Origin: Octopus vulgaris
Lineage: Eukaryota
Assembly: GCA_951406725.2 (NCBI GenBank)
Contig: OX597816.1
Span: 166,408,001-166,472,000 of the forward strand
Reading direction: 5' to 3'
Length of the DNA stretch: 64,000 nt
Position numbers and translations under genes: made by a program. The notes beneath the pieces were generated by a model. The model was not told where the DNA came from and did not search any database. It saw only the letters and a program-made list of their open reading frames with translations. Shown piece by piece: positions 1,385 to 55,535 of the stretch (the stretch's first letter is position 1; each line of letters begins with the position of its first letter).

Positions 1385-2492
1385 ACGATATGCTGTACTG
1401 CTTGCTATTTTCGTCAGAACCTCCAATACGAACATTTCGGAGTATTTGGATGTCAATCTGAGGACAGTGCAGTGGATTCGGAAAGAATCGGATGAGTCTA
1501 ATGACAGCTCGGAAAACTCACTCTGATCATTCTGATAAGAAAAGAACTCCTGAATTTCTTGGTGAGATCCAGGCCATGACTGATAATCACATCCAAGTCA
1601 ATCACATCCAAGCCCAGTGACATAGGAGTGTCTGAGATTCTTATCAAGCAGGCAGTGCATGAAAACATTCGGTATTCCTCATACAGGATGTTTATCACAA
1701 GCCATCAAGGACAAGAGGAAAGACCGCGCTACGAAGCTTTTGAACAAACTCAAGCATCCCCTCCAACCGAACATACTTCGGTTATTCTCAGGCGAGAAAA
1801 AGTTTTGCCAGGACCAGATGATAAACACACAGAACAACCGTTGGCTTGCCATGTCACCAAAGCATTTACCTATAGTGATAAAAACCAAACATCCAGTCAA
1901 CATCATGATGTCTGGAGTGATCTCTAGCGATGGCGACATTATGCCGCCATTCATCTTCCCACACGGCCTCAGACTCAACACGGAGGTCTACATCAAGTGC
2001 CTGGAGGGGATAGTGCTGTCCTGGGTCAAGAGGGTGACTGCTGGAAGACCTTGTCTGTCAACAGGACTCTGCACCCTGCCACACAAGCAGAAGAACCCAG
2101 TCATGACTGTCAGACAATTTCTGTGACCACATCACCCCTAACATCTGACCACCTAACTCCCCACACTGAAACCCCTTTGATTATTATGTGTGGGGCGCAG
2201 TTGAACGAGAAAGACCAACAAAACTCATTGTAACACCAAAGATGAACTGAAGGCAAGGATTATGGCAGCAATCACCACCTTAAACAAGGAAACTGTCCAA
2301 AAAAGTTGCAGGAGATTTCGAAGTTGTCTGGAGGCCATGGTTGAAGCTAATGGCGATTTTATTCAATAAATTTACTCTTCAGTATTTCAAGATATTTTAA
2401 TGTAATTTTGGTAAATATGCCTGTTAAAATGAGATGTCAGTGTTATTTTTATTTTTGCGTAATTTAGACGACAGTTTATTCACCGAACCCCG
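1384..2492 (+). mobile_element. Degenerate Tc1/mariner-superfamily transposon, DD37D (maT-type), 5' truncated
   Basis: FSGEKKF, QQDSAPCHTS followed 37 residues later by NPFDYYVWG with in-frame stops; right end CCCCG then TA. Confidence 0.85.
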
Positions 2493-9973: not shown

Positions 9974-10950
9974 CAAAGGTCATTATTGTAATTGGATTGT
10001 AGAAAAAGCAGAGGAAGACGGTAGTGCACCTGCAGACCAGGAAATGAAGCATGTTTCTGAATGATTCCATGTCAAACAAGACCGAATGTATCGCAACCAA
10101 TAAAGGAGTTTCGAAGCAATCGAAACTCCTTCATTTTCCCGACCTTTTCACTACCAAGGACTCCTTTTACTTAAATGAGTTTTCCTATGGATCCCTTTAA
10201 ATATGCTTATCCTTATGTGTGTGTGTGTGTGTGTGTATTCTTATTTCTTTACTGCCAACAAGGGGCTACACAGAGAGGGGACAAACAAGGACAGACAAAC
10301 GGATTAAGTCGATTACATCGACCCCAGTGCGTAACTGATACTTAATTTATCGACCCCGAAAGGATGAAAGACAAAGTCGACCTCAGCGGAATTCGAACTC
10401 AGAACGTAACGGCAGACGAAATGCCTATTTCTTTACTACCCAAAGGGGTTAAACGCAGAGAGGACAAACAAGGACAGACAAACGGATTAAGTCGATTATA
10501 TCGACCCCAGTGCGTAACTGGTACTTAATTTATCGACCCCGAAAGGATAAATGGCAAAGTCGACCTCGGAGGAATTTGAACTCAGAACGCAGCGGCAGAC
10601 GAAACACCACAAAGCATTTCGCCCGGCACGGTAACGTTTCTGCCAGCTCACCGACTTCTTGTGCGTGTATTCTTTTATTCTTTTATTTCAGTCATTTGAC
10701 TGCGTCCATGCTGGAACACACCTTTAGTCGAACAAATCGATCCTTGGACTTATTCTTTGTAAGCTTAGTACTTATTTTATCGGTCTCTTTTGCCGAACCG
10801 CTAATTTACGGGGACGTAAACACACCAGCATCGGTTGTCAAGCGATGGTGAGGGAACAAAAACAGACGCACAAACACACACACATGTACACACACACACA
10901 CACACATACATACATACATACATACATACACACATACATACATACATACA

Positions 10951-11039: not shown

Positions 11040-12323
11040 GAGGGACGTTCAATAAGTAATGTCTCCGACCCAATTGCAGTTGTTTGATCTAGCTGAAATT
11101 TTGCATGTGCAATCATTTATATCTCTATAGAGTAAGTGGCAAATTACAGCTCTGAATTAATAGTGGTTTCTGATTTACAGGTGTTTGAACCGAGTCAAGT
11201 GTGAAATGGAGCCTGTTGAGTGTCGAGCAGTGATCCGATTTTTGTATTTGAAAGGACGCACACCACGGGAGACTTTTGATGAAATGAAAGTAACTTATGG
11301 TGATGATGCCCCATCATATGACCTTGTAAAACGTTGGCATCGTGAATTCAAACATGGTCGGAACTCTGTGGAAACAGCTCCCAGATCTGGTCGCACCCTT
11401 CTGCCATTGATGAGGCATCTGTCCGTCAAGTTGAGGCTGCCATTTTGGAAGATCGATGCATATTCACCAAATAGCCCATTAGGTCAAGATTAGTACCGGG
11501 TCTGTGGAAACTATCATTCATGACCATTTGCATATGCAAAAGGTGTCTGCCAGATGGATTCCCAGGTTGCTCACGCCTTTCCAGAAGCAAGAACGCATCG
11601 AGTGCTCGAGGGTGAATTTGGAGATGTGCCAAGAAGATGAGTCAAAATTTTTCAAAAGACTTATTACACAGGATGAAACCTGGGTCCATCACGATGATCC
11701 AGAGACCAAATTCCAGTCAATGCAGTGGAAGCACCGTGACTCACCCCCTCCAAAGAAGGCAAGGGTGCAGCCCTCCGCTGGCAAGGTCATGCTCACAGTC
11801 TTCTGGGACCAGGACGGAGTAGTGATGACAGATTTCCTGGCAAAGGGTACCACAATTGCAGGAGCCTATTATGCTTCACTTTTGAGGAAATTAAGAGAAG
11901 TTATCAAAATCAAGAGGCGGGGCAAGATCAGCAAAGCATCCTCCTCCTGCAGGACAACGCTCCGGTCCACAACTCGCTTGTCGCCAGATCAGAAGCACAA
12001 GCGTATGGCTATGAACTCCTCCCCATCCCCCCTACTTTCTTGACCTTGCACCCTCTGATTTTCACCTCTTCCCAGTCATTAAGTTGTTTTTGAAAGGAAA
12101 GCGTTTCCCAGATGATGCAGCCTTGATTTCTGAAGTCACGTTGAAGTTGGAGGACCAAGCTGGGGTCTTCTACAAAAACGGTCTCCAGAGCCGTATCAAA
12201 CGATGGGAGAAATGCGTAACTCTGGGTGGTTCCTATGTAGAAAAAGACTAATAACTGTGCCAAGTTTCGTTGCTCTACTGCTATGGGAAGTGGGTCAGGG
12301 GCATTACTTATTGAACGCCCCTC

Positions 12324-14364: not shown

Positions 14365-15480
14365 TACGTTTATTTTCTTATGAAATACACACATACAGGA
14401 GGAGTAAATTTCTATATATAATAACACTTTGAATGTGGCTCCCGAGAAAGTCGGGTCTCCCCAACCTCGAGAATCTCTGTTATTTCTTCCAGCTTGGTCT
14501 GCTCGACTTGCATCACAATTCGAAGGCCCTGGCCATGCCAGCTGCGTGGCTCCATTACGGCAGCTTCCAATACGGATATTTTGTCTTCTAGACCGATAGT
14601 AACTGCCGCGACGAGCCACTCAGGGACTACGTCAGGAGGAATATTACTTATCGTAACTCTTGACGTTCTTTTGCCCATATATATGGGCAGAAGTACCACC
14701 TCTTCGGTTTTAAAGGGTCGACTGAATGGAGTCGGGCTGCCTCTTCTGACTCCATTCTTACTTCGACGGTTGCATACCGCCTACCTCTGTTTACGTATTT
14801 TACCAGGTGCTATATAGGCTTTAGACACTTTTCAATTTCACTCTCCACAACGTAGTCTATCTTCTTTATTTTCACCTTGTATGTCTTATAAATGAGAGTT
14901 TTCTTCTCTATATATTGTTGAATATCTTTTGGAGAGGCTACTTTAACTTCATTCCCCTCCTTCGTTAATAATTCCTTGTGTTTTTCTAAGTTGTTCAGGT
15001 TTAGCATTTTCACTTTTGTGCCTGCCGCAGCGGCAAAATCCAATTTTCTCGATTATTTTCTCATTTTTTTTTTCTGCTATTTTTCTTTTGTACATAAACT
15101 TGCAACATAATTTTTTTTTTTTTTTTGACGTCGATGGTCTAGGTGGGGTATTCTCAAATTCTTCTTCTATTAATGTTTTTTCCACATTTCTTTCCACTTC
15201 CTCTTCCCTCAATAACCCTTCTATATTTAGTTTATTCGAGCTTGCCATAATGCAAGCTTCCCCACACGGGAGTAAAACACGCAAAAAAAAAAAAAGAAAT
15301 TCAGAAATAATCCAACAATGGTTTCAACAAGTAACCAAATGGTTTCAACAAACTAACACTATCAAAAGTTCAAAACAATAAAACGCCCACCCCCTCGTAA
15401 ACAGCAAAACATCCAACAATTAACTCAAGACACAACTTGCACGAACTGGTTAGACTTTGGCATCGATCGGTACCGTACAA
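14365..15480 (-). mobile_element. Degenerate ORF1-only element, unit M2
   Basis: ATG at 15248; frameshifted peptides IEKKTLIYKTY and VVLLPIYMGKRTSRVTISNIPP..EWLVAAV align with the 19761 ORF (IEKKTITYKMY; VVLLPTYLGRKTSKVRVEGIPP..AWVAAAV). Confidence 0.85.
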
Positions 15481-15485
15481 GGTGA

Positions 15486-16918
15486 TTTTTTTATTACCTA
15501 CAGGGGGCTATACAAAGAATGGGACAATACAAAACGTGACAAATATAAACTCGGCGAACTTAAAAATTATAAAAAGAAGATGAATTAAGAAGTAAAAATT
15601 GAAAGAAACGAATGAAAATATGAAAGAATATAAATGAGACGCAATGCCCACTCGAACTCCGAAGTCGAGTGGTTACATTTCGACAATTTTTCTCTTTTTC
15701 ATAAATGAATATCACAAAAATTACAATCTAATTTTTCTTTTTAGTCTCTCATATTCCATTATGGGTAGGTGGACTCTTATGCAGCCGACACCATTTCACC
15801 AGTTTTACATTTTTCGCAAATCCCTCCATGAATTTGTCATATCTCTCCTGAGGTATCAAAATACCTCCATCATTTACATCAAAACTGTCTCCCGACAGCC
15901 TCACTCTTACCATTTCCTTCACTTTCGCTATTTTTCTCTCCGCGTCCGCACTTTTTTTTTATATATTACAAAGGCTCCCTCAAATTTATACAGTTCGTTT
16001 TCTGTTTCTTCCTCTTGCATATTCTTAGTTTCAAGTTTCTCCGGAACTTTTCGGTTTGAACGGCAGTTTTTTCTAGCGGCGTCATATGAAACTGTCACCC
16101 ATAATTATGACTCTAGTATCGATCTATTGCATTTCAATCTGTTTTAGGGTTAGGGTTAGGGGTGGGGGGAAGGATATCTTTTTTTCTTCAGAAATGTAAA
16201 TAAACCCAATCTGTTTCTTAAATGAGGGACATATTCATACGGCACAGAATATTTCACCTCAATAGACGTCATTGATTGGTTGAAATTGCAGAAATTGAAG
16301 AAAAAAACAACAAATATCTTACAAACTATAGAATTTTCTCAATAAAACCAAGAGAAAAAGATGTTTTATAAACACATTCTACCAGTATACGAAGTTTAAA
16401 ATTTTTTAGTTACCTGGAATTAATTTTTAAAAACTGTCGTTCAAACCGAAAAGATCCGTTTTTCCTTACCTTTCTTGTTTTCTACTGAGTGTTCCCTTTT
16501 CTTAGACCTCTTTCTTCTTTTGGGGCTAATAACTCCCTCAATCTCTTCCTTTGATTCTTTCACTTCACTTTTCTTCTTCTCTTTATCTTTCTGGGTACGG
16601 TCCTTCTCTATTTTGTCTTCTTCTCTGTTTGTAATTTCTCCTGCATCTGCTCTTTCTTTTGCTCTTTCATTTGTTCCTTTTCCACCGTCTTTTCGCTGTG
16701 TGTGAATTCGTATTAGGGGCACTCGGTCCTTATGGTGTCCTCTCACTCGCATAAGTAGCAATTTGGTTTCCTTCCCTCCACCACCACCACATTCAGCGTC
16801 ATCTCGTCCTCAACCTCAATCTGATAAGGGATTCCTTCGATATCCTCAAATGTAGCGACAAGCCACATTTCAACTCCAAACGCCCACCAGTTCAACATAT
16901 CCGCTTCACCAACTATAC
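15486..16918 (-). mobile_element. Degenerate ORF1-only element, unit M1 (3' half), interrupted by a MITE
   Basis: VVVEGRKPNCYLC..GH knuckle relic, K/E-rich linker, C-terminal block KIAKVKEMVRVRLSGDSF, T-rich UTR and a SINE-like tail. Confidence 0.75.
16043..16457 (+). mobile_element. Monomeric Merlin-like MITE of the same family as 9158-9973
   Basis: GGAACTTTTCGGTTTGAACGGCAG...AAACCGAAAAGATCC termini, 8-bp TSD GTTT(C/T)TCC; GG..CC ends with an 8-bp TSD suggest Merlin. Confidence 0.85.
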
Positions 16919-16919
16919 A

Positions 16920-18120
16920 ATGGTAGAAAGAAAGAGGAATAATGTGGAATCTCCATCTAAAAGCCCAAAGAAGAAAAGAAAGGCACAGGAGAACAAGAAC
17001 GAGAAGAGAAGGAATGAGGAGCCAAGTGCGGAACGAACACAAAGACCGTTGCATTCAACTAGTAAGGAGGAGGGAGGACGGAAGAAGAGGAGACATGAAA
17101 GTGAGAAGGAAAGACAAACAGAGACGGGAATGCCAGCAACAGAAGAGGAAGAGAGTGGTGAGGAACAGCAGAGAGAGCCACCGAAGGAGAAATATGAAAG
17201 AACTGTGATATTCTTTCTTTTACTTCTTTCAGTCAAGCGACTGTAGCCATGCTGGAGCACCGCCTTTAGTCGAGCAAATCGACCCCAGGACTTATTCTTT
17301 GTAAGCCTAGTACTTATTCTATCGGTCTCTTTTGCCGAACCGCTAAGTTACGGAGACATAAACTCACCAGCATCGGTTGTCAAGCGATGTTGGGGGAGGG
17401 GACAAACACAGACACACAAACATATACACACACATACATATATATATATACATATATATACGATGGGCTTCTTTCAGTTTCCGTCTACCAAATCCACTCA
17501 CAAGGCTTTGGTCGGCCCGAGGCTATAGTAGAAGATACTTGCCCAAGGTACCACGCAGTGGGACTGAACACGGAACCATGCGGTTCGTAAGCAAGTTACT
17601 TACCGTAACGCCACTCATACGCCTATGAGTGGCATATGTTACAAAAAAAAAGTGTAAAGATAGAAAAGAAAATTTCAAAAATGAAACATGTCATAAGGGT
17701 TAAAGTGGCTGACAGTGAGTACAATCGAGATGAGAAAGCGGTGCTGTTGGAGGAAGAAAAAACAAGAAGGTTGCAGGAAATATTTGGCGACAGGATAGTG
17801 ATAACAGGAATTCGATTTCGTTACGATGAATTGCCACCAGTGATAATATTTGACGATTTGGTGAAACATATGGTGTGATATTGTGACGATCTTTAAACAA
17901 AAGGAAAACTAACAAGATATAAGACTGATAAGTACACGCTTTATTTAAAAACAGTAAAATTAAACTACTTGTTTATGGTGGCAAGCAAGTCATTCCATCT
18001 TCATTTTCATTTATATTCATAATCCATTCGTTATATGTTATTATGAACCCCAATGTATAGTTTTGTCTGTCTTTTGTGTTGTCCCTTCTCTATGAGGCCT
18101 TGTGCCTAATTGAAGAAATA
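16920..18120 (+). mobile_element. Degenerate ORF1-only element, unit P1 (3' half), interrupted by a SINE
   Basis: charged linker 16920-17210; C-terminal block KISKMKHVIRVKVADSEY (17636-17878) similar to unit M1; tail ending GGCCTTGTGCCTAATTGAAGAAATA. Confidence 0.7.
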
Positions 18121-18122
18121 AG

Positions 18123-18707
18123 GACGTTGGTGTTGTCAGTGTTTTATTTAATTAGTGAGTTGGAAGTGCATATGCTCCTTGTGAGTACCGTTTTGTTAAA
18201 CTGTTATTTGTTGAATTGTTGTTGAACTTGTTGTTACGGTATTTTAATTTGCTTCCCCATTTATGGGTGAAGTGGTGAATAATATGGAAAGTACACCAGT
18301 GCAAGCGCGCAGTTATGAAAAAGCCAGTCAGTGGAGGGACTGCAAGTTACAGAAATTAAATTACAGGAGAAAAACTTCAAAAATACAATGATTTATTAAG
18401 AAAGGAATGAGGAGCCAAGTGAGGAACGAACACAAAGACCGTTGCATTCTTAATTTCTCTGAGGTACTCCTCGACCGCCTCCACCGCTGCTATTTCCACC
18501 TTTTTTGTTTCAATTTTCAATGTTCTATACACAATTGTTACAGGAGTGGCTGTGTGGTAAGTAGCTTGCTAACCAACCACATAGTTCCGGGTTCAGTCCC
18601 ACTGCGTGGCATCTTGGGCAAGTGTCTTCTGCTATAGATCCGGGCCGACCAATGCCTTGTGAGTGGATTTGGTAGACAGAAACTGAAAGAAGCCTGTCGT
18701 ATATATG

Positions 18708-18802
<95 letters not shown>

Positions 18803-19540
18803 TTGTGTGTCTGTTCCCCTAGCATTGCTTGACAACCGATGCTGGTGTGTTTACGTCCCCGTAACTTAGCGGCTCGGCAAAAAGAGACCGATAGAATAAG
18901 CACTGAGCTTTCAAAAAGAATAAGTCCCGGGGTCGAGTTGCTCGACTAAAGGCAGTGCTCCAGCATGGCCGCAGTCAAATGACTGAAACAAGTAAAAGAG
19001 TAAAAAGAGTAAAGGGTAAGAGTAAAGGAGGAAGATAGCCTGAGGTTGACGCCCCCCAAAGAAGTAACAGAAAGAACGGAGAAGGTAACAATTGTGTATA
19101 GAACATTGAAAATTGAAGCAAAAAAAGGTGGAAATATCAGCGGTGAAGGCGGTCGAGGAGTACTTCAGAGAAATTAAGAACGTAATGACGTTCTACACCA
19201 GAGGAAGGAAATACGGCACAGTGGAGGTACGCTTCGTGAATGAAGAAGCGAGGAAATACTCCACTGTGCCTTTGAAGTCAGCAGAGTGGGCGCTGCTACC
19301 GACTTACTGTGGCAAACGTGCGGCCAGAGTAAGAATAGGTAGTGTTTCCCCCAGAAATTGATGAGGCGTGGCTGGTAGCAGCCATGCTCTTCAACACAGA
19401 GGAAGACACGATGTTCATTTTCATGTGTCATTCATTATATCATATTTTATTTTTATATTTTTAATTGTTTTATGTCCCCACATGTGTTGTAGTGTTTCCC
19501 TCTGTGCAATGCCTTTATAGCAATTTAAAAGAAATAAAGA
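18123..19540 (+). mobile_element. Degenerate ORF1-only element, unit P2, interrupted by a SINE
   Basis: GT-rich leader and ATG at 18284; relic RGRKYGTVEVRF...LLPTYCGKRAARVRIG...AWLVAAM at 19030-19415; tail ending AAAGAAATA. Confidence 0.75.
18540..19025 (+). mobile_element. SINE family B (tRNA-derived, CORE-like CTTGGGCAAGT, internal (TA)n(TG)n, AAGAGT tail)
   Basis: TGGCTGTGTGG and GGTTCAGTCCC boxes; copies at 13325-13645, 17211-17605, 23603-24015, 50798-51363, 55137-55536, 63048-63545 and others. Confidence 0.9.
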
Positions 19541-19760
19541 AGCTTGCGTCGGTCTATTCGTTGTGTTGATTTTTGACGAGACAGACGGAATTTTTTGAGC
19601 TGCTGGTCAGCGGTTTGTCGGTGCGAGTTGTACTGGTGGAAAGGAATGTATTCGGACCTTAGCGAGTATGAACTGTCCTCGGCGGAGGAGGAGCTCGTTA
19701 AGGCGGTAAATAGAATGGACGAGCATTTGGAAAGAGCAAAGTTTTGCTGAGGCTACAGAG

Positions 19761-20681
19761 GTGAAGAAAAGAGAGGTGGACCTTGCCGGACTAACACAGA
19801 AGGTGGGCAGTGACGTAACGTTATTACCTCCGAAAAGGGTCATGGAAAATATAGAAAAGAAGACTATTACCTACAAGATGTACTCAGTGGAGAGTAAGTC
19901 GGTGGAGCGGATGGAGATAGAAAAGGTAGAAAAAGCATTGAAGGGGTTTTCGAAGGAAGTGACATACATAGCGAAAGGAAATGGATATGGGACGGTAGTT
20001 GTCCAGTTTAGGACAGCGAAGGAGGCAAAGTGGCTGGCGAGTACAACGGTGAGAACGGAGGAAGTAGTACTTCTACCCACGTACCTTGGAAGAAAGACTT
20101 CTAAGGTGAGGGTAGAAGGAATCCCACCCGTTATAGAAGTGGCTTGGGTTGCGGCAGCCGTCCTCGTTGGTAGTGAAGAGGAGGTGGCTGTCCTCCAAGC
20201 TATTGAGACAGAGGAAGGAGGATATAGAGGAAATACATTGGAAATCATCATACAAGTGGAGGTGAAGCAACTGGAAAATTTGGTGAAGACGGTGACGTTG
20301 GGAGAAATAGTATTGAGAGTATGGGTAGAGGGCAGAGTTCCGCGATGCTTTAAATGTGGCCAAAAAGGCCACATTAGAGCTCACTGCCCTCTACAGAAGA
20401 AAACGACAGAAGAAGCGGTGCTGGAGACGGAGGAGAAAAAGAAAGAAGTACAGAAAGATGGAAGGAATAAGGAGGATGAATGGACAGTGACAGAGAATAA
20501 AAGGAAAAAGAGAAACAAGAGGAAGAACAGTCAGTGTGATGTGGGACCCCAGACCAACTCCATCCCACCCAAGACCACTCAGATCCACCCTACCCATACA
20601 CACACCAAACTCACCCACTCCCTCTCCCCACAGGAAAAAAGATTAGACACCACAAAATTTACAAGACCCTTCCCCCGCTGA
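19761..20681 (+). mobile_element. Non-LTR ORF1/gag-like ORF (RRM-like region, CCHC zinc knuckle, charged linker); unit P3 of the ORF1-only cluster
   Basis: VEGRVPRCFKCGQKGHIRAHC knuckle, YGTVVVQF and VRVEGIPP RRM-like strands; no RT downstream. Confidence 0.85.
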
Positions 20682-21629
20682 TAAAGGTTACGTGTACATG
20701 TAACTCAGTGATGAGGAAAGCGGCAAAAGAAAGACTAGATCAAAGACTAGAGGGGACTCGGGACTCAAGAGGTGGCGGTTGGTGTTACTCAGTGTGGGGT
20801 GAGTAACACACTTTTCATATTCTCATTTCTCAGTTATCATTCATGTATCAGTACAACCTGAATATAATTTTTTCCTCTATACTTTTATTTATATTTTTAG
20901 TTCCGATTTTTTTTGGGGTGGGGGTAGTCGATCAGATAGAACTCAGTACGCAACTGGTACTTAATTTATCGATCTCGAAAGGATGAAAGGCAAAGTCGGA
21001 ATTTGAACTCAGAACGTAAAGGCAGATGAAACATCGCTAAGTATTTCGCCCGGCGTGCTAACGTTTCTCCCAGCTCGCTGCCTTAAGAAAGAAATATAAA
21101 TATTCTTTTCTACTCTAGGCACAAGGCCCGAAATTTTGGGGGAAGAGGCAAGTCGATTAGATCGACTCAGTACGCAACTGGTACTTAATTTATCGACCCC
21201 GAAAGAATGAAAGGCAAAGTCGACCTCGGCGGAATTTGAACTCAGAACGTAGCGGCAGACGAAATACTGCTAAGCATTTCGCTCGGCGTGCTAACGTTTC
21301 TTATTTCTTTATTGCCCACAAGGGGTTAAACATAGAGGGGACAAACAAGGAGAGACAAAGGGACTAAGTCGATTACATCGACCCCAGTGCGTAACTGGAA
21401 CTTATTTAATCGACCCCGAAAAGATGAAAGACAAAGTCGACCTCGTCGGAATTTGAACTCAGAACGTAAAGACGGATGATACACTGCTAAGCATTTCGGC
21501 TAGCGTGCTAACGTTTCTGCCAGCTCGCTGCCTTTAGAGAGAAGGCAAGATTGATAGATGAAAAAACTTAGAGAAAACTGAAAATTTGAATTTATGTTTT
21601 ATTCTATTGTGTTGTAATATCGGTACCGC

Positions 21630-25136: not shown

Positions 25137-26049
25137 AAAAAAAAATTTTATCGACCCCGAAAGGATGAAATGCAAAAAGTCCGGCCGGTTAAACTCCAGT
25201 TTCTGACCCGGGCAGTTTCGACCTCGGGCGAATTTGAACTCAGAACATAAAGACAGGCGAAATGCCGCAGAGTATTTTATCCGGTGTATTAACGAATCTG
25301 CGAAAAATATAATTAGTGAAGAGAGACATCACAGACTCCCAACATAACGAGAGCCATATGAATGAATGGTGTGGTTCGCACTTAATGCCCGACTGGACCG
25401 CAGATCACATCCGTTTGCTCCGCACCCCTGCTTTTTTTTTTTTTATTAATTAACACAAAATAACTTTTATTTTCGACATGATTTAAAAAAAGAAAAAAAC
25501 ATTGTTTACCGCTCAACAAATTATTTCACAATTTTTAAATCTGATCAATTTTATAACAGTTTATGTATATTTTCGATCAAATTTAAAAAAAAAAAAAAGT
25601 CGAACACGACTTGAGATCATTATTAAAATTTTAGAGGAATGAAATAAAAAAAATGTTAATTAGAATTTTGAATTAAAAAATATTTTGGTATCTAAGTGGA
25701 AGTTCTCCTTCCTTTAATTACACTCCGTGGCCCTACTGCGGCCCTTAAATTAACACTGTCAACTAGAACAAATATGTATACTGTCTATTGATGTATATAA
25801 TAAGTATGTGACCTTAAAAGTAATTATACTTTATATATTTATTTTGTATGGATGTTGTCCTCATGTAAGAAATTTTATTTAATTATATTATTATATATCG
25901 AAGATGGAAAATAATCGCCTTTTTACGGTTGTATTACTATTTTAGTGTCAAAACAAATATTTTCTTCTTGTCGGTTTCACTTGTTAACTCGTCGTGTTCA
26001 TAATATTAATAATTCCTATATTGATTACCGTTAAAACTCTCGCCAAATC

Positions 26050-27906
26050 ATGGAAAGACCGAGGAAGCGGCGAATCGGCGAAGAAAATAGAAAATTTCAA
26101 GAAAAATGGACCAAAGAATATTTTGTCATTCCACAGAACGATAAAGTTTTGTGCCTGATCTGTCGTAAAGTCGGTGCTTGTTTGAAAGAATATAATATTA
26201 AACGGCATTACAATTCACATCACAAATCTTATAACATGTTAGTAGGCGATGAACGGAATATGAAGCTAGAATTACTTTTGAAAGATATTGCTGATCAAAC
26301 ATTTGTTTTCCAAACTGCCCAAAACGAAGTGTCAGTCTATGCTAGTTATGTTCTTGCTTACGAACTTGTCAGGAGTGCCAAACCATTATCTGAAGGTGAA
26401 TTTCTTAAACAGTGCATGATGAAAATAGTAGACGTTGTTATTCCTGATAAAAAACAACTTTTACAAGATATCGATATGTCGAATGTCACAATGTTCCGCA
26501 GAATTATTGATGTCGCTGAAGATCTTCAAAAACAACTCCAAACGCATTCGCAGAGTTTTGTAGCTTATTCTATTTCCTTAGATATTTGTAACGATATTAG
26601 TGAAACCCCACAACTTTTGGTTTTCATCCGAGGAGTTTTAGAGAATTTTGATATTCATGAAGAATTGCTTTCTGTAGAAAATCTGTCAGAAAAAGCTACA
26701 GGGATCGATATATTTCACGCCACTTGCCGGGCTTTAAATGCAAACAATATGAATTGGGAACTTTTGGTAGGGGTCACTACGGATAGTGCACCAGCTATGA
26801 TTGCAGCAAAATCTGGTGCCGTTGCTTTGTTAAGCCAAAAAATGAAGCAAAAATATGACATGGATTTAATCCATTACCATCGTGTTATTCCTCAAGAGAC
26901 ACTTATTAGCAATGTTCTTTTAATGGATAATGTTATAAGTGTTGTTGTCAAGTGTGTAAACCTGTTGAGAAGTGAAGTTCATGAACATAACCTGTTTAAA
27001 AGTTTCCTGGAAGATTGCAAAGCGGAATTTGGTGATGTGTATTTCTCTACGGATAGATGGGTCAGCAATTATTCTTGTCTCAAACGCTTTTTTTCTTTAA
27101 CAAATGAAATCAAAGAATTTCTGTATCGAAAAGATCACGAGTTAGTAAATATTATGGACAGCGACTGGATGTGTGATTTGGCCTTTTTGGTTGATATTTC
27201 CTCAGTTTTAAATGAATTAAACACACAACTTCTTGGAAATGGTAAATTTGCTACAACACTTTTTGAACATACCAAAGGAACTGGAAAAAAACTCCAAATT
27301 CTACAGAAGCAGCTAAAAGATAAAAATTTGACTAATTTTGCAACCTGCAAACTGCTATTAGATGATGGCTTCAAAGTTTATAAAGATGGATGTGTTGTTT
27401 TGGATAAGAGTTGCACAATTCTAGAAACATTTTCTTCTGAAAAATATACCCAAATTCTTCAACGTGCAATAGGTTTTTTGGACTTACAGGAGCATTCACA
27501 AGCTTTAGATATTTTTGAAAATCCCTTTACTGTAGAACCAGAAACTGCGCCAACAACCTTTCAATTAGAACTTAGAGATTTGCAGGAAGATTCCAAATTT
27601 AATTATCCTTTCTGTGAAAAAAGTCTCATTAATTTTTATGAAGAACTTTCTGCTAAACAATATCCTAAATTACGCCATCATGCCCAACAAATGACTTCTT
27701 TGTTTGGAAGTACATATATATGTGAGAAAACTTTTACCATGATGAATTTAAATAATAATAGTTCCTTGTTTAAAACTAAGTTTACCGAAACTTATCACCA
27801 TCCATATTTACGTGTTCTAACTTCAAATTACTGTCCTAGAATGGAACACATCTTAGAAAAAAAATCATCTTCCATCATATCAGGAGATTATGTTTATTTT
27901 TCATAA
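26050..27906 (+). CDS. hAT (Buster/SPIN/Charlie) transposase-derived protein, GTF2IRD2/EPM2AIP1/ZBED8-like, 618 aa, intronless
   Basis: BED-like finger (W...CLIC...YNIKRHYNSHH), KPLSEGEFLKQCM, SLD...QLLVFIRGV, TTDSAPAM, RW, DLAFLVDI, FGSTYICEKTF; uninterrupted frame. Confidence 0.92.
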   Translation: MERPRKRRIGEENRKFQEKWTKEYFVIPQNDKVLCLICRKVGACLKEYNIKRHYNSHHKSYNMLVGDERNMKLELLLKDIADQTFVFQTAQNEVSVYASYVLAYELVRSAKPLSEGEFLKQCMMKIVDVVIPDKKQLLQDIDMSNVTMFRRIIDVAEDLQKQLQTHSQSFVAYSISLDICNDISETPQLLVFIRGVLENFDIHEELLSVENLSEKATGIDIFHATCRALNANNMNWELLVGVTTDSAPAMIAAKSGAVALLSQKMKQKYDMDLIHYHRVIPQETLISNVLLMDNVISVVVKCVNLLRSEVHEHNLFKSFLEDCKAEFGDVYFSTDRWVSNYSCLKRFFSLTNEIKEFLYRKDHELVNIMDSDWMCDLAFLVDISSVLNELNTQLLGNGKFATTLFEHTKGTGKKLQILQKQLKDKNLTNFATCKLLLDDGFKVYKDGCVVLDKSCTILETFSSEKYTQILQRAIGFLDLQEHSQALDIFENPFTVEPETAPTTFQLELRDLQEDSKFNYPFCEKSLINFYEELSAKQYPKLRHHAQQMTSLFGSTYICEKTFTMMNLNNNSSLFKTKFTETYHHPYLRVLTSNYCPRMEHILEKKSSSIISGDYVYFS

Positions 27907-47910: not shown

Positions 47911-47940
<30 letters not shown>

Positions 47941-47941
<1 letters not shown>

Positions 47942-48296
47942 GAGCATTTGGAGAGCACAAACCTCCACCAAGGCAACACCAACGTCCTCTCAATGATTAG
48001 TCAGAGATGATTTTTAAAATGAGAATATCTGAAATACTTAAATGCTCTCACAAATGAGAATACTAAAGATGAACCTGACTGCTCTCAAAAATTAAGTAAA
48101 AAACAGGAAAAATAATCCAGAATCCTTGTCTGGCATCGGATCAATCCCAAGATCTAAGTTTGTGCCAGTCAGAAGGCCAAATATCCCTAAAAGTTTCAGC
48201 CGAATCCATCCGGCAGTTCTTGAGATATCTTGTCCACGGACAAACAGACATGACCGAAAACAATACCTCCACCTTCGCTAAGGCGGAGATAACAAT
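47941..48296 (+). mobile_element. Helentron-associated (HINE/DINE-like) element
   Basis: subterminal ACCTCCACCAAGG motif, ACAAACAGAC repeat, terminal CTCCACCTT..AAGGCGGAG hairpin. Confidence 0.55.
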
Positions 48297-48325
48297 AATG
48301 ATGATGATGATGATGGTGGTGGTGG

Positions 48326-53354: not shown

Positions 53355-55535
53355 CAATATTAAACCGTTCACAGCTGACTTAGAAGGGGGCTTCTATGTG
53401 TGAGAAGCTTCGAAATGCTAGAAATAGCAGCCAGGTCTCTCCCAAATTACGGCGAGCTGCGTTTTATTTAAAGAAGACGTGTTGGTGGCAGCCAGATAGA
53501 AAAGATCCAAGTTCTGGATCTGAATAATCTGTGCTGGAATGGTCACAGTTGGAATAACTTTTGATGATACGTTTGCTCAATCTCGGGGTGCTAGGAGCTT
53601 CGAAATGCTAGAAATAGCAGCCAGATCATTTCGATGCTGTAGTTTTGGACCTGGGTGCATTTGAACTCGGGGTAAACAACAACGGCGATAGTTATTCGGG
53701 CGGGCTGGCAGAAATGTTAGCATGCCGGGCGAAATGCTTTGTGGTATTTCGTCCATCGCTGCGTTCTGAGTTCAAATTCCGCCGAGGTTGACTTTGCTTT
53801 TCATCTTTTCGAGGTCGATAAATTAAGTACCAGTTACGCCCTGGAGTCGATATAATCGATTTAATCCGTTTGTCTGTCCTTGTTTGTCCTCTCTGTGTTT
53901 AGCCCCTTGTGGGTAGTAAAGAAATCGGTATTTTGTCTGCCGCTACGTTCTGAGTTCAAATTCCTCCGAGGTCGACTTTGGCTTTCATCCTTTCGGAGTC
54001 GATAAATTAAGCACCAGTTACGCACTGGGGTCGATATAATCGACTTAATCCGTTTGACTGTCCTTATTTGTCCCCTCTGTGTTTAGACCCATGTGGTCAG
54101 TAAAGAAATAAGTTATTCACAATAAGGAAGAGAAAAATATATCCCAAGCGGTGCGAGAGATATTAGTTAAACAAACGTCAGGTAGATCCTATGTGGTGAG
54201 ACAAAAATCTTCGATTTACTCAAATTATCTATGCAATTCATGAACAAAAGCTCCCTCTATATGTGTTTAAAATCTCAAAAACAAATATCGAAATGACTTT
54301 ATTAAAAACGAAGCAAGACGATGTGAGTGAATCTTTTTACCTTGTTTCAGTCCTTAGACTGCGGCCTAGCTGGGGCACTGCCTTGACGGGTTTAGTACTA
54401 ATTTTTTTAAAAGTCTAGAACTTATTCTAATGTCTCTTTTGCCAAACCACCGATGTTACGAGGCTGTAAACAAACCAACAGTGATTGTCAAGTAGTGTAC
54501 GCGGGAGAGGTACACAAGCACAAGGGACACACACACACACACACACACAAACACAAACACACAGACACACACACACACACAAATTTATATATACACAATG
54601 GGCTTCCATAGTTTCATTCTACCAAATTCACTTACAAGACATTGGTCGACCCGGAGCTACAGAACATGCTTGTCCAAGGTGTCTTGCAGTGGGATTGAAC
54701 CGAAACCCACCTAGCCAAAGAGCGAACTTCTTAATCACACAGTCATGTCTACGCCTTGTCTTTGAAGAAAGCCTCTTTCAGCCCTTTTACATCTCTCCTA
54801 AGCGGAGCATAATATTCAACGAAATCAGGGACTTAAAATACAACAATATGTCTTTACTCGTTTTTTTTTTTACTTGTGTCAGTCATGTGACTGTGGCCAT
54901 GCTGGAGCACCGCCTTTAGTCGAGCAAATCGACCTCAGGACTTATTCTTTGTAAGCCTAGTACTTATTCTATCGATCTCATTTGCCGAACCGCAAAGTTA
55001 CGTGGACGTAAACACACCAGCATCAGTTGTCAAGCGATGTTGGGGGGACAGACACAGACACACAAACATATACGCACGCACACACACACACACAAACATA
55101 TACGCACGCACACACACACACACAAATATATATATAGGCGCAGGAGTGGCTGTGTGGTAAGTAGCTTGCTAACCAACCACATGGTTCCGGGTTCAGTCCC
55201 ACTGCGTGGCATCTTGGGCAAGTGTTTTCTGCTATAGCCCCGGGCCGACCAATGCCTTGTGAGTGGATTTGGTAGACGGAAACTGAAAGAAGCCTGTCGT
55301 GTATATGTATATATATGTATGTGTGTGTGTGTGCTTGTGTGTCTGTGTTTGTCCCCCTAGCATTACTTGACAGCCGATGCTGGTGTGTTTACGTCCCCGT
55401 AACTTAGCGGTTCGGCAAAGGAGACCGATAGAATAAGTACTGGGCTTGCAAAAAATGAGTCCCCGGGGTCGATTTGCTCGACTAAAGGCGGTGCTCCAGC
55501 ATGGCCGCAGCCAAATGACTGAAACAAGTAAAAGA

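What the first reader, a model, noticed from the sequence alone, without database searches (positions are those of the whole stretch)
14365..20900. Head-to-tail chains of five divergent ORF1-only (RT-less) retroelements
Seen: five mutually divergent relics of one protein family (RRM-like region, CCHC knuckle, K/E linker, small C-terminal block). They form two chains pointing away from about 16.92 kb: M1 then M2 on the minus strand, and P1, P2, P3 on the plus strand. In M1 and P1 the C-terminal block (KIAKVKEMVRVRL vs KISKMKHVIRVKV) runs straight into a T-rich UTR and tail, with no endonuclease/RT ORF. Each tail is followed within a few bases by the GT-rich leader of the next unit (18120/18123, 19540/19541, 15486/15480). 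Known: ORF1-only non-autonomous LINE derivatives such as HAL1 exist, and some Tx1/L1 relatives are target-specific. Inference: this is a family of gag-only elements mobilised in trans that inserts next to its own kind. The units are too divergent to be local tandem duplicates.
Basis: partly seen in the sequence, partly recalled or inferred. Interest (0 to 1): 0.75.

Follow-up and report, generated by a model that had tools for sequence, protein, structure and literature searches.

The report
Half-retrotransposons stacked on shared landing sites
This is a decayed pile of six jumping-gene remnants: five come from families that keep only an RNA-binding gene and likely borrow their copying enzyme, one is a broken complete element, and they line up because their families land at fixed spots inside two other common repeats, one of them used from both directions.

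Summary
There are six remnants, not five.

- M1, P1, P2, P3 and a tail-only sixth unit belong to true ORF1-only families. Their relatives are 1.4-1.8 kb, flanked by target duplications, carry no RT, and have ORF1 under purifying selection.
- M2 is the 5' stump of an autonomous L1/Tx1-type LINE.
- The units do not seek each other. P1/P2 land at one site of a 370-bp Helentron-like element (HINE), the M2 family at a second site on its opposite strand, and P3 in a SINE head.
- The spacers between units are target DNA. The divergence at 16.91 kb is most likely one HINE hit from both sides and later deleted internally; intact parallels exist elsewhere in the genome.
- Across families, target choice tracks the 3' tail rather than the ORF1 tree, which suggests helper switching.

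Close precedents are Tx1-Mar/SINEU (two opposed sites in one transposon) and HAL1/HeT-A. This scan noted SINE-head and Helitron stacks of such elements before, on other DNA of this genome. Verdict: new variant of a known kind.

The parts
14433..15438 (-). M2: 5' leader and ORF1 (N-terminus, RRM1, most of RRM2) of an autonomous L1/Tx1-type LINE; 3' part lost
   Evidence: 85-90% nt to L141/L142/L143, which continue into EN (and RT); groups with L141/L142 ORF1s, SH-aLRT 97; homology ends at 14433-14448
15439..15482 (+). Remnant of the HINE-like host element around site A; M2's upstream flank and M1's landing point
   Evidence: aligns to 5 of 5 HINE copies tested; same M2 junction in L141 and L142
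15483..16040 (-). M1 3' part: linker end, C-terminal block (15752-15958), 3' UTR and tail without poly(A)
   Evidence: 78-88% nt to relatives, which end at the same tail
16041..16458 (.). Unrelated MITE-like insertion with about 30-bp terminal inverted repeats inside M1
   Evidence: inverted repeat 93%; 91% copies at L037 and L067; M1 relatives are continuous across it
16459..16914 (-). M1 5' remnant: end of RRM2, broken CCHC knuckle, linker
   Evidence: 79-83% nt to L085/L087/L091/L093; copies L290 and L291 carry the whole ORF1 core then tail, no ORF2
16911..16914 (.). Head-to-head joint of M1 and P1 with a 4-bp overlap; inferred deletion of M1's 5' end, the HINE middle and P1's 5' end
   Evidence: intact parallels L156/L286 and L280
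16911..17209 (+). P1 linker (post-knuckle)
   Evidence: 76-90% nt to 11 close relatives
17210..17633 (-). SINE inserted in P1
   Evidence: self-match to 18544-18999; relatives continuous across it
17634..18121 (+). P1 C-terminal block, 3' UTR and tail
18122..18135 (+). Target-site duplication of HINE site B between P1 and P2
   Evidence: 21 of 30 P1-type tails are followed by it; HINE positions about 313-327 lie on both sides of chains L148 and L153
18136..19412 (+). P2: leader, N-terminus, RRM1 and start of RRM2, with a local duplication (18398-18449), an inverted duplicate (18447-18541) and a SINE (18544-about 19010); 3' half lost
   Evidence: ORF1-only relative L153 sits alone in a HINE
19411..19539 (+). 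P3': 3' UTR and tail of a sixth unit of the P3 family, fused to P2 by deletion
   Evidence: matches P3-family tails (73-93% nt) and no P2 relative
19537..19547 (+). Remnant of the SINE-head target duplication between P3' and P3
19548..20870 (+). P3: leader and ORF1 (start codon at 19646, frameshifted near 19745; RRM-RRM-CCHC 19809-20396); tail lost, followed by SINEs from about 20911
47930..48300 (-). Empty copy of the HINE-like host element, used here as reference for sites A and B

Best explanation
The region is a decayed nest of six non-LTR retroelement remnants: five are from ORF1-only families that are likely copied in trans by L1/Tx1-type LINEs recognising a shared 3' tail, one (M2) is a truncated complete LINE, and the head-to-tail order likely arose from repeated insertion at fixed sites in a HINE-like transposon and a SINE head. 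Steps: (1) Shown: ORF1-only units are independent insertions with 12-22 bp target duplications and no room for ORF2. (2) Shown: P1/P2-type tails are followed by HINE site B, P3-type tails by the SINE-head site, and M2-type LINEs and other ORF1-only units use HINE site A on the opposite strand. (3) Inferred: the helper's endonuclease nicks the target, its RT primes on the passenger's tail, and the duplicated target survives and is hit again, so units stack with one target copy between them. (4) Inferred: in this window one HINE received a minus-strand chain at site A and a plus-strand chain at site B; microhomology deletions then removed the middle (16911-16914) and fused P2 to a neighbouring SINE-hosted P3 pair (19411). 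(5) Inferred: ORF1 is kept because the RNA needs its own packaging protein.
For: Size and TSDs: 17 of 22 P3-family rows have a duplicated target motif 1,425-1,516 bp upstream of the tail; about 12 of 25 M1-tail rows have a credible 14-22 bp TSD at a 5'-truncation point. No RT lies within 1.5 kb upstream of 30 P1-type tails or 30 P3-type tails. Targets: P3-type 26 of 30 (30 of the 40 matches); P1-type 21 of 30, of which 14 of 30 run on into the HINE 3' end (30 of the 45 matches). Helper for P3: L160 reads SINE head, ORF1-only unit, TSD, full LINE with a P3-type tail, TSD, rest of SINE. Site A is used by an RT fragment (L242) and by ORF1 units (L244-L247) among 8 matches. Two-sided HINEs with the middle intact: L156/L286 and L280. 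Neighbours of P1-like units vary (P2-type, other leaders, none), as expected of one-by-one insertion. dN/dS is 0.07-0.29 in 12 of 12 within-clade ORF1-only pairs. A relative, L045 unit 3, differs from unit 4 by 21 A>G of 25 changes, a mark consistent with an edited RNA intermediate.
Against: No RT-bearing element was found at site B, so the P1/P2 helper is unidentified. M1 does not fit a fixed target: the 26 tail rows have almost all different flanks, and in the window it sits about 19 bp off the usual site-A junction, so its place beside M2 may be partly chance. 9 of 30 P1-type tails are not at site B (4 look like another SINE head, by eye). Double use of one HINE is not clearly enriched (2 of 6 versus 2 of 30, Fisher P 0.12). 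Both outer ends and the middle of the host HINE are missing in the window, so step 4 rests on a 44-bp remnant, a 14-bp duplication and parallels elsewhere. Trans-mobilisation itself was not tested.
Confidence: 0.85

Rival explanations
1. The elements recognise the 5' leader or tail of their own kind and insert there.
For: 10 of 30 P1-type tails are followed by another unit. In the young Y-family chains (L045, L049) tails meet the next leader at variable positions with no fixed spacer.
Against: In this window each spacer is third-party DNA. Solo copies sit at the same motif in otherwise empty HINEs and SINEs (14 of 30; L153, L158). The motif exists in 334 exact genomic copies, and 28 of 30 sampled have no ORF1 unit at it.
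Confidence: 0.06
2. Chains are inserted in one event (RT template jumping or read-through RNA), or are copied as a block with the HINE by rolling-circle transposition.
For: The P1-type to P2-type order recurs at L148 and L149. Tails carry no poly(A). The host is a mobile element.
Against: A target copy lies between units, which jumping does not predict. Window P1 is no closer to loci that share the P2 neighbour (85-86%) than to loci that do not (86-91%). Neighbours differ among loci.
Confidence: 0.07
3. All units are ordinary LINEs that lost ORF2 by deletion after insertion.
For: True for M2. The locus has suffered several deletions.
Against: Constant 1.43-1.52 kb TSD-to-TSD length on many chromosomes; ORF1-only clades contain no RT-linked member among 79 rows; purifying selection between ORF1-only subfamilies.
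Confidence: 0.02

Closest known systems
Tx1-Mar LINEs and SINEU passengers in Mariner-N4_AMi of crocodilians; Tx1 in Tx1D of Xenopus (Kojima 2015, PMC4494074; passages and section 16 read)
   Same: LINE and passengers target another transposon; tandem copies sandwich a TSD; two hot sites in one host element, one used in the opposite and one in the same direction, by different families.
   Different: There the passengers are non-coding snRNA-derived SINEs and the host is a Mariner. Here the passengers encode ORF1 under purifying selection and the hosts are a HINE-like element and a SINE head.
HAL1 (half-L1) and Ag-Sponge, ORF1-present non-autonomous LINEs (PMC5753468, PMC5786205; passages read)
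   Same: Encode only ORF1 and keep LINE 3' ends.
   Different: The passages read describe no site specificity or stacking. The tails here have no poly(A) and come in helper-like variants. The primary HAL1 paper (Bao and Jurka 2010) was not available and may cover further lineages.
HeT-A and other ORF1-only telomeric Jockey elements of Drosophila (bioRxiv 10.1101/2025.06.09.658640; passages read)
   Same: ORF1-only lineages that give rise to new ORF1-only families, depend on another element's ORF2 and form head-to-tail arrays.
   Different: Those are Jockey-clade and telomeric. This locus is interstitial (C3:166.4 Mb of 182.4 Mb) and the arrays grow at duplicated targets inside other transposons.
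HINE / DINE-1 non-autonomous Helentrons (PMC4067079; passages read)
   Same: The 370-bp host has a 5' subterminal repeat with a nested inverted repeat, a matching 3' subterminal repeat, a 3' hairpin and T-rich flanks.
   Different: Its autonomous Helentron partner was not looked for.

Membership tests
ORF1-present non-autonomous LINE (HAL1-like) | Encodes ORF1 only, no endonuclease/RT between 5' end and tail | tested here: met
   Met for P3 (17 of 22 rows, 1.43-1.52 kb), P1/P2 (L148, L153) and M1 (L290, L291)
ORF1-present non-autonomous LINE (HAL1-like) | Same feature for unit M2 | tested here: not met
   6 of 7 fetched relatives, including the 3 closest, continue into EN/RT
ORF1-present non-autonomous LINE (HAL1-like) | Independent retrotransposition (TSDs, 5' truncation, fixed 3' end) | tested here: met
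ORF1-present non-autonomous LINE (HAL1-like) | ORF1 maintained by selection | tested here: met
   dN/dS 0.07-0.29 in 12 of 12 within-clade pairs
ORF1-present non-autonomous LINE (HAL1-like) | Mobilised in trans by a partner ORF2 | not testable with these tools
   Shared tail and target with L160 (P3) and L242 (site A) are indirect; no partner found for site B
HAL1 in the strict sense (derived from mammalian-type L1, poly(A) tail) | Poly(A) tail | tested here: not met
   Tails end a few bases after an AATAA(A) motif with no poly(A); the poly(A) criterion for L1/HAL1 is recalled
L1/Tx1-type LINE (M2 family and helpers) | ORF1 plus ORF2 with APE endonuclease, RT and zf-RVT | tested here: met
   Exo_endo_phos, RVT_1 and zf-RVT; best solved relative is L1 ORF2p, E 2e-52
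Tx1 clade | RT phylogeny groups with reference Tx1 elements | not tested
   No named Tx1 reference was returned; the label is inferred from domain order and target habit
Target-specific family (more than 20% of flanks of one type, criterion of PMC4494074) | Fixed flank | tested here: met
   P3-type 26 of 30, P1-type 21 of 30; not met for M1
HINE (non-autonomous Helentron), host element | Subterminal inverted repeats, 3' hairpin, T-rich flanks | tested here: met
   5' end recognisable in 16 of 30 copies and 3' end in about 27 of 30 (read by eye)
HINE (non-autonomous Helentron), host element | Ends shared with an autonomous Rep/Helicase element; no TSD at empty sites | not tested
   not searched
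HeT-A type telomeric element | Arrays at chromosome ends | tested here: not met
   Copies are interstitial on many contigs; the TTAGGG run at 16.15 kb belongs to the MITE
tRNA-derived SINE (P3 host) | tRNA-like head | tested here: inconclusive
   No tRNA call by ARAGORN or Rfam; the tRNA origin is recalled; 77 heads in 400 kb

The most novel reading that the evidence does not exclude
Octopus ORF1-only retroelements are old, self-standing lineages that change helper, and with it their landing site, by swapping a short 3' tail. ORF1 clades cut across targets: P3 (SINE head), the L156 group (HINE site A) and the Y group share one ORF1 clade yet carry three different tails, each resembling a different LINE's tail, while a clade only 27% identical to P3 shares P3's tail and target. 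A 40-70 nt RNA tail would thus act as an interchangeable address label that routes a protein-coding passenger to a chosen site and strand of another transposon.
Probability: 0.45. Interest if true: 0.68.

Novelty: new variant of a known kind. Interest (0 to 1): 0.45.

Why it matters
It joins two things known separately, ORF1-only passengers (HAL1, HeT-A) and transposon-targeting LINEs (Tx1-Mar), in one large system with thousands of candidate copies. It offers natural sets of helper, tail and target for asking what decides where a LINE inserts and why an element keeps ORF1 but drops its RT. If tails are swappable address labels, that bears on site-directed insertion with non-LTR enzymes. In practice these units are probably mis-annotated as LINE fragments or as host zinc-finger genes (two such UniRef entries). 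The locus itself is dead and has no evident host function.

Tried and rejected
RNA evidence: no holder is on record as RNA. Contigs of four runs only guessed to be RNA cover parts of a young relative. Not used for or against expression.

Structure of the C-terminal block: low confidence (pLDDT 52), so no fold search was run. It has no Pfam match and no profile match to the C-termini of the Y, gamma, P3 or L040 groups.

Telomere idea: the TTAGGG run lies in the MITE, rejected.

Helper at site B: not found with three pattern searches or in the 10-kb stretches. One mis-specified pattern gave a single hit.

Enrichment of two-sided HINEs: not significant. Of 8 site-A matches, L248 (empty variant) and L249 (tiny insertion) were dropped before the 2 of 6 count.

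Tree: the quick IQ-TREE run, midpoint-rooted, 79 rows. Fragments under 110 aa, including window M1, P1 and P2, were left out; M1 is placed only by its best match (59% to L046 unit C). An unrelated gag-like ORF in L002 was dropped from the panel.

Rfam gave only microsatellite noise. The HAL1 primary paper was not held.

Literature searches found no description of ORF1-only, transposon-targeting elements in cephalopods. The main text of a curated octopus repeat annotation (PMC13282606; part 1 of 3 read plus a term search) has no occurrence of 'ORF1', 'nested' or 'non-autonomous'. Its supplements, Repbase entries and subscription journals were not seen and may hold such families.
Full report
Setting. 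The window is G000:C3:166408001-166472000 in a 2.8-Gb genome. The only two database proteins related to P3 are labelled Octopus bimaculoides, so I treat the host as an octopus. Outside 14.4-20.9 kb the window has no ORF1 hit.

What is in the sequence. P3 (19710-20681) carries a zinc knuckle. Its core folds as two RRM-like domains plus the knuckle (pLDDT 86.5; tandem-RRM hits). It matches M2, P2 and the M1 remnant. The genome holds many relatives: 150 scored of 14,112 candidates for the P3 core and 150 of 1,321 for the P1 C-terminal block. Comparison with relatives resolves six remnants and three later insertions. M2 (15438 to 14433) is leader plus RRMs. M1 (16914 to 15483) is end of RRM2, knuckle, linker, C-terminal block and tail, split by a MITE. 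P1 (16911-18121) is linker, block and tail, split by a SINE. P2 (18136-19412) is leader plus RRM1, with a SINE and an inverted duplicate. P3' (19411-19539) is a P3-family tail only. P3 (19548-20870) has lost its tail.

Are they ORF1-only? For P3, 17 of 22 tail rows have the target motif repeated 1,425-1,516 bp upstream, which leaves no room for ORF2. P1/P2-type units fill 1.4-1.8 kb between target copies (L148, L153). M1 relatives L290 and L291 run from RRM1 to tail without ORF2, and about 12 of 25 M1-tail rows show 14-22 bp TSDs at 5' truncations. No RT lies within 1.5 kb upstream of 30 P1-type tails or 30 P3-type tails. M2 is the exception: 6 of 7 fetched relatives, including the three at 85-90% identity, continue into endonuclease and RT, and M2 groups with them in the tree. 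ORF1 of the ORF1-only groups is under purifying selection, dN/dS 0.07-0.29 in 12 of 12 pairs.

Is adjacency more than chance? Yes. Forty arbitrary 10-kb stretches held one ORF1 hit, belonging to a decayed full LINE. With the upper bound of that density, 10 of 30 P1-type tails with a downstream unit has P about 4e-13, and 3 of 30 P3-type tails P about 0.004. Chains of 3-7 units, several including a full LINE, were seen in the first fetched set.

Why they stack. P3-type tails are followed by one motif in 26 of 30 cases. It is the head of an abundant SINE, split by the insertion. L160 shows the full logic: SINE head, ORF1-only unit, duplicated target, complete LINE with a P3-type tail, duplicated target, rest of the SINE. 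P1-type tails are followed by another motif in 21 of 30 cases, and 14 of 30 run on into the 3' end of a 370-bp element whose ends match the HINE/DINE-1 anatomy (PMC4067079 passages). An empty copy lies at window 47930-48300. This site B is occupied in 2 of 30 sampled copies (of 334 exact matches). M2-family LINEs L141 and L142, an RT fragment (L242) and ORF1-only units (L244-L247) use a second position, site A, on the opposite strand. In the window, 15439-15482 is the site-A region and 18122-18135 the site-B duplication. L156/L286 and L280 show the same two-sided arrangement with the HINE middle still present. The window's divergence point is therefore best read as such a HINE after an internal deletion with a 4-bp overlap. 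This history is inferred.

What does not fit. M1's family has no fixed target, although one relative also abuts a LINE at a shared duplication (L147) and M1-related units occur at site B (L298). No helper was found for site B. Two-sided use is not significantly enriched.

Tail versus ORF1. All families, the LINEs and an abundant SINE share a related 3' end without poly(A), in variants. The P3 tail resembles that of LINE L160 and of the distant gamma group (27% ORF1 identity to P3), and all three use the SINE site. The L156 group, in the same ORF1 clade as P3 (support 96), has a tail like RT fragment L242 and uses site A. The Y group, also in that clade, has a tail like LINEs L039 and L046. This pattern suggests that ORF1-only lineages change helper by exchanging tails. 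It rests on a small, non-random sample and a quick tree.

Comparison with what is known. Kojima 2015 (PMC4494074; passages and section 16) describes Tx1-Mar LINEs and SINEU passengers in a Mariner element, with tandem copies around a TSD and two sites used in opposite directions. ORF1-only LINE derivatives are known from the L1, Jockey and CR1 clades (PMC5786205, PMC5753468; passages), and ORF1-only lineages in head-to-tail arrays from Drosophila telomeres (bioRxiv 2025.06.09.658640; passages). The combination was not found in the searches, but the HAL1 paper, Repbase and supplements were not seen. The helpers are L1/Tx1-type by domains; Tx1 membership was not tested. Earlier notes of this scan report SINE-head stacks and Helitron stacks in the same genome. 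I reached my reading before opening them. None of the notes listed describes the two-sided use of one host.

Verdict. A real, non-random structure; a new variant of known kinds; the locus itself is a dead, rearranged example. Interest 0.45.

Noticed in passing
L045:5360-6930: A young ORF1-only unit differs from its neighbour by 21 A>G of 25 substitutions, clustered in about 240 bp, consistent with A-to-I editing frozen in by reverse transcription.
   Followed up: partly
L045, L049, L031-L034, L039, L046: Young Y-family chains of 3-7 nearly identical 1.7-kb units, some ending at a full LINE; tails meet the next leader at variable positions, so their stacking rule differs from P1 and P3.
   Followed up: partly
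window 21309 (minus strand), 10242-10604, 53743-54109: A SINE with the same 3' tail as the LINEs forms 183-184 bp head-to-tail dimers, at 21309 by sitting in another SINE's head; 4 of 30 P1-type tails appear to use that same SINE site, which shares a short core with HINE site B.
   Followed up: partly
L148:2050-2580, L154, L158, L253, L257, L258, L265: A longer HINE subfamily carries a shared 500-700 bp internal segment bounded by a duplicated stretch near site A.
   Followed up: no
window 26035-27903 (+): An uninterrupted 623-codon reading frame that looks like a hAT/SPIN-type transposase or a GTF2IRD2-like domesticated gene (label recalled, no search run).
   Followed up: no
window 11483-12251 (+) and 1626-2123 (+): Mariner/Tc1-like transposase relics (label recalled).
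   Followed up: no
window 16041-16458; L234: A MITE-like element with 30-bp inverted ends and an internal TTAGGG run; in L234 similar sequence lies within a site-B insertion of a HINE.
   Followed up: partly
L049:790-840: The terminal few bases of a tail are repeated three times before the next unit, like RT stuttering at initiation.
   Followed up: no
L047 (C29:24.23 Mb): A solo ORF1-only unit lies among C2H2 zinc-finger-coding sequence; a UniRef entry fuses such an ORF1 with zinc fingers.
   Followed up: no
L147:2315-7150 and L093: An M1-type unit and an M2-related LINE share one duplicated 15-bp site, and the same site follows the M1 copy in L093: a weak further target.
   Followed up: partly
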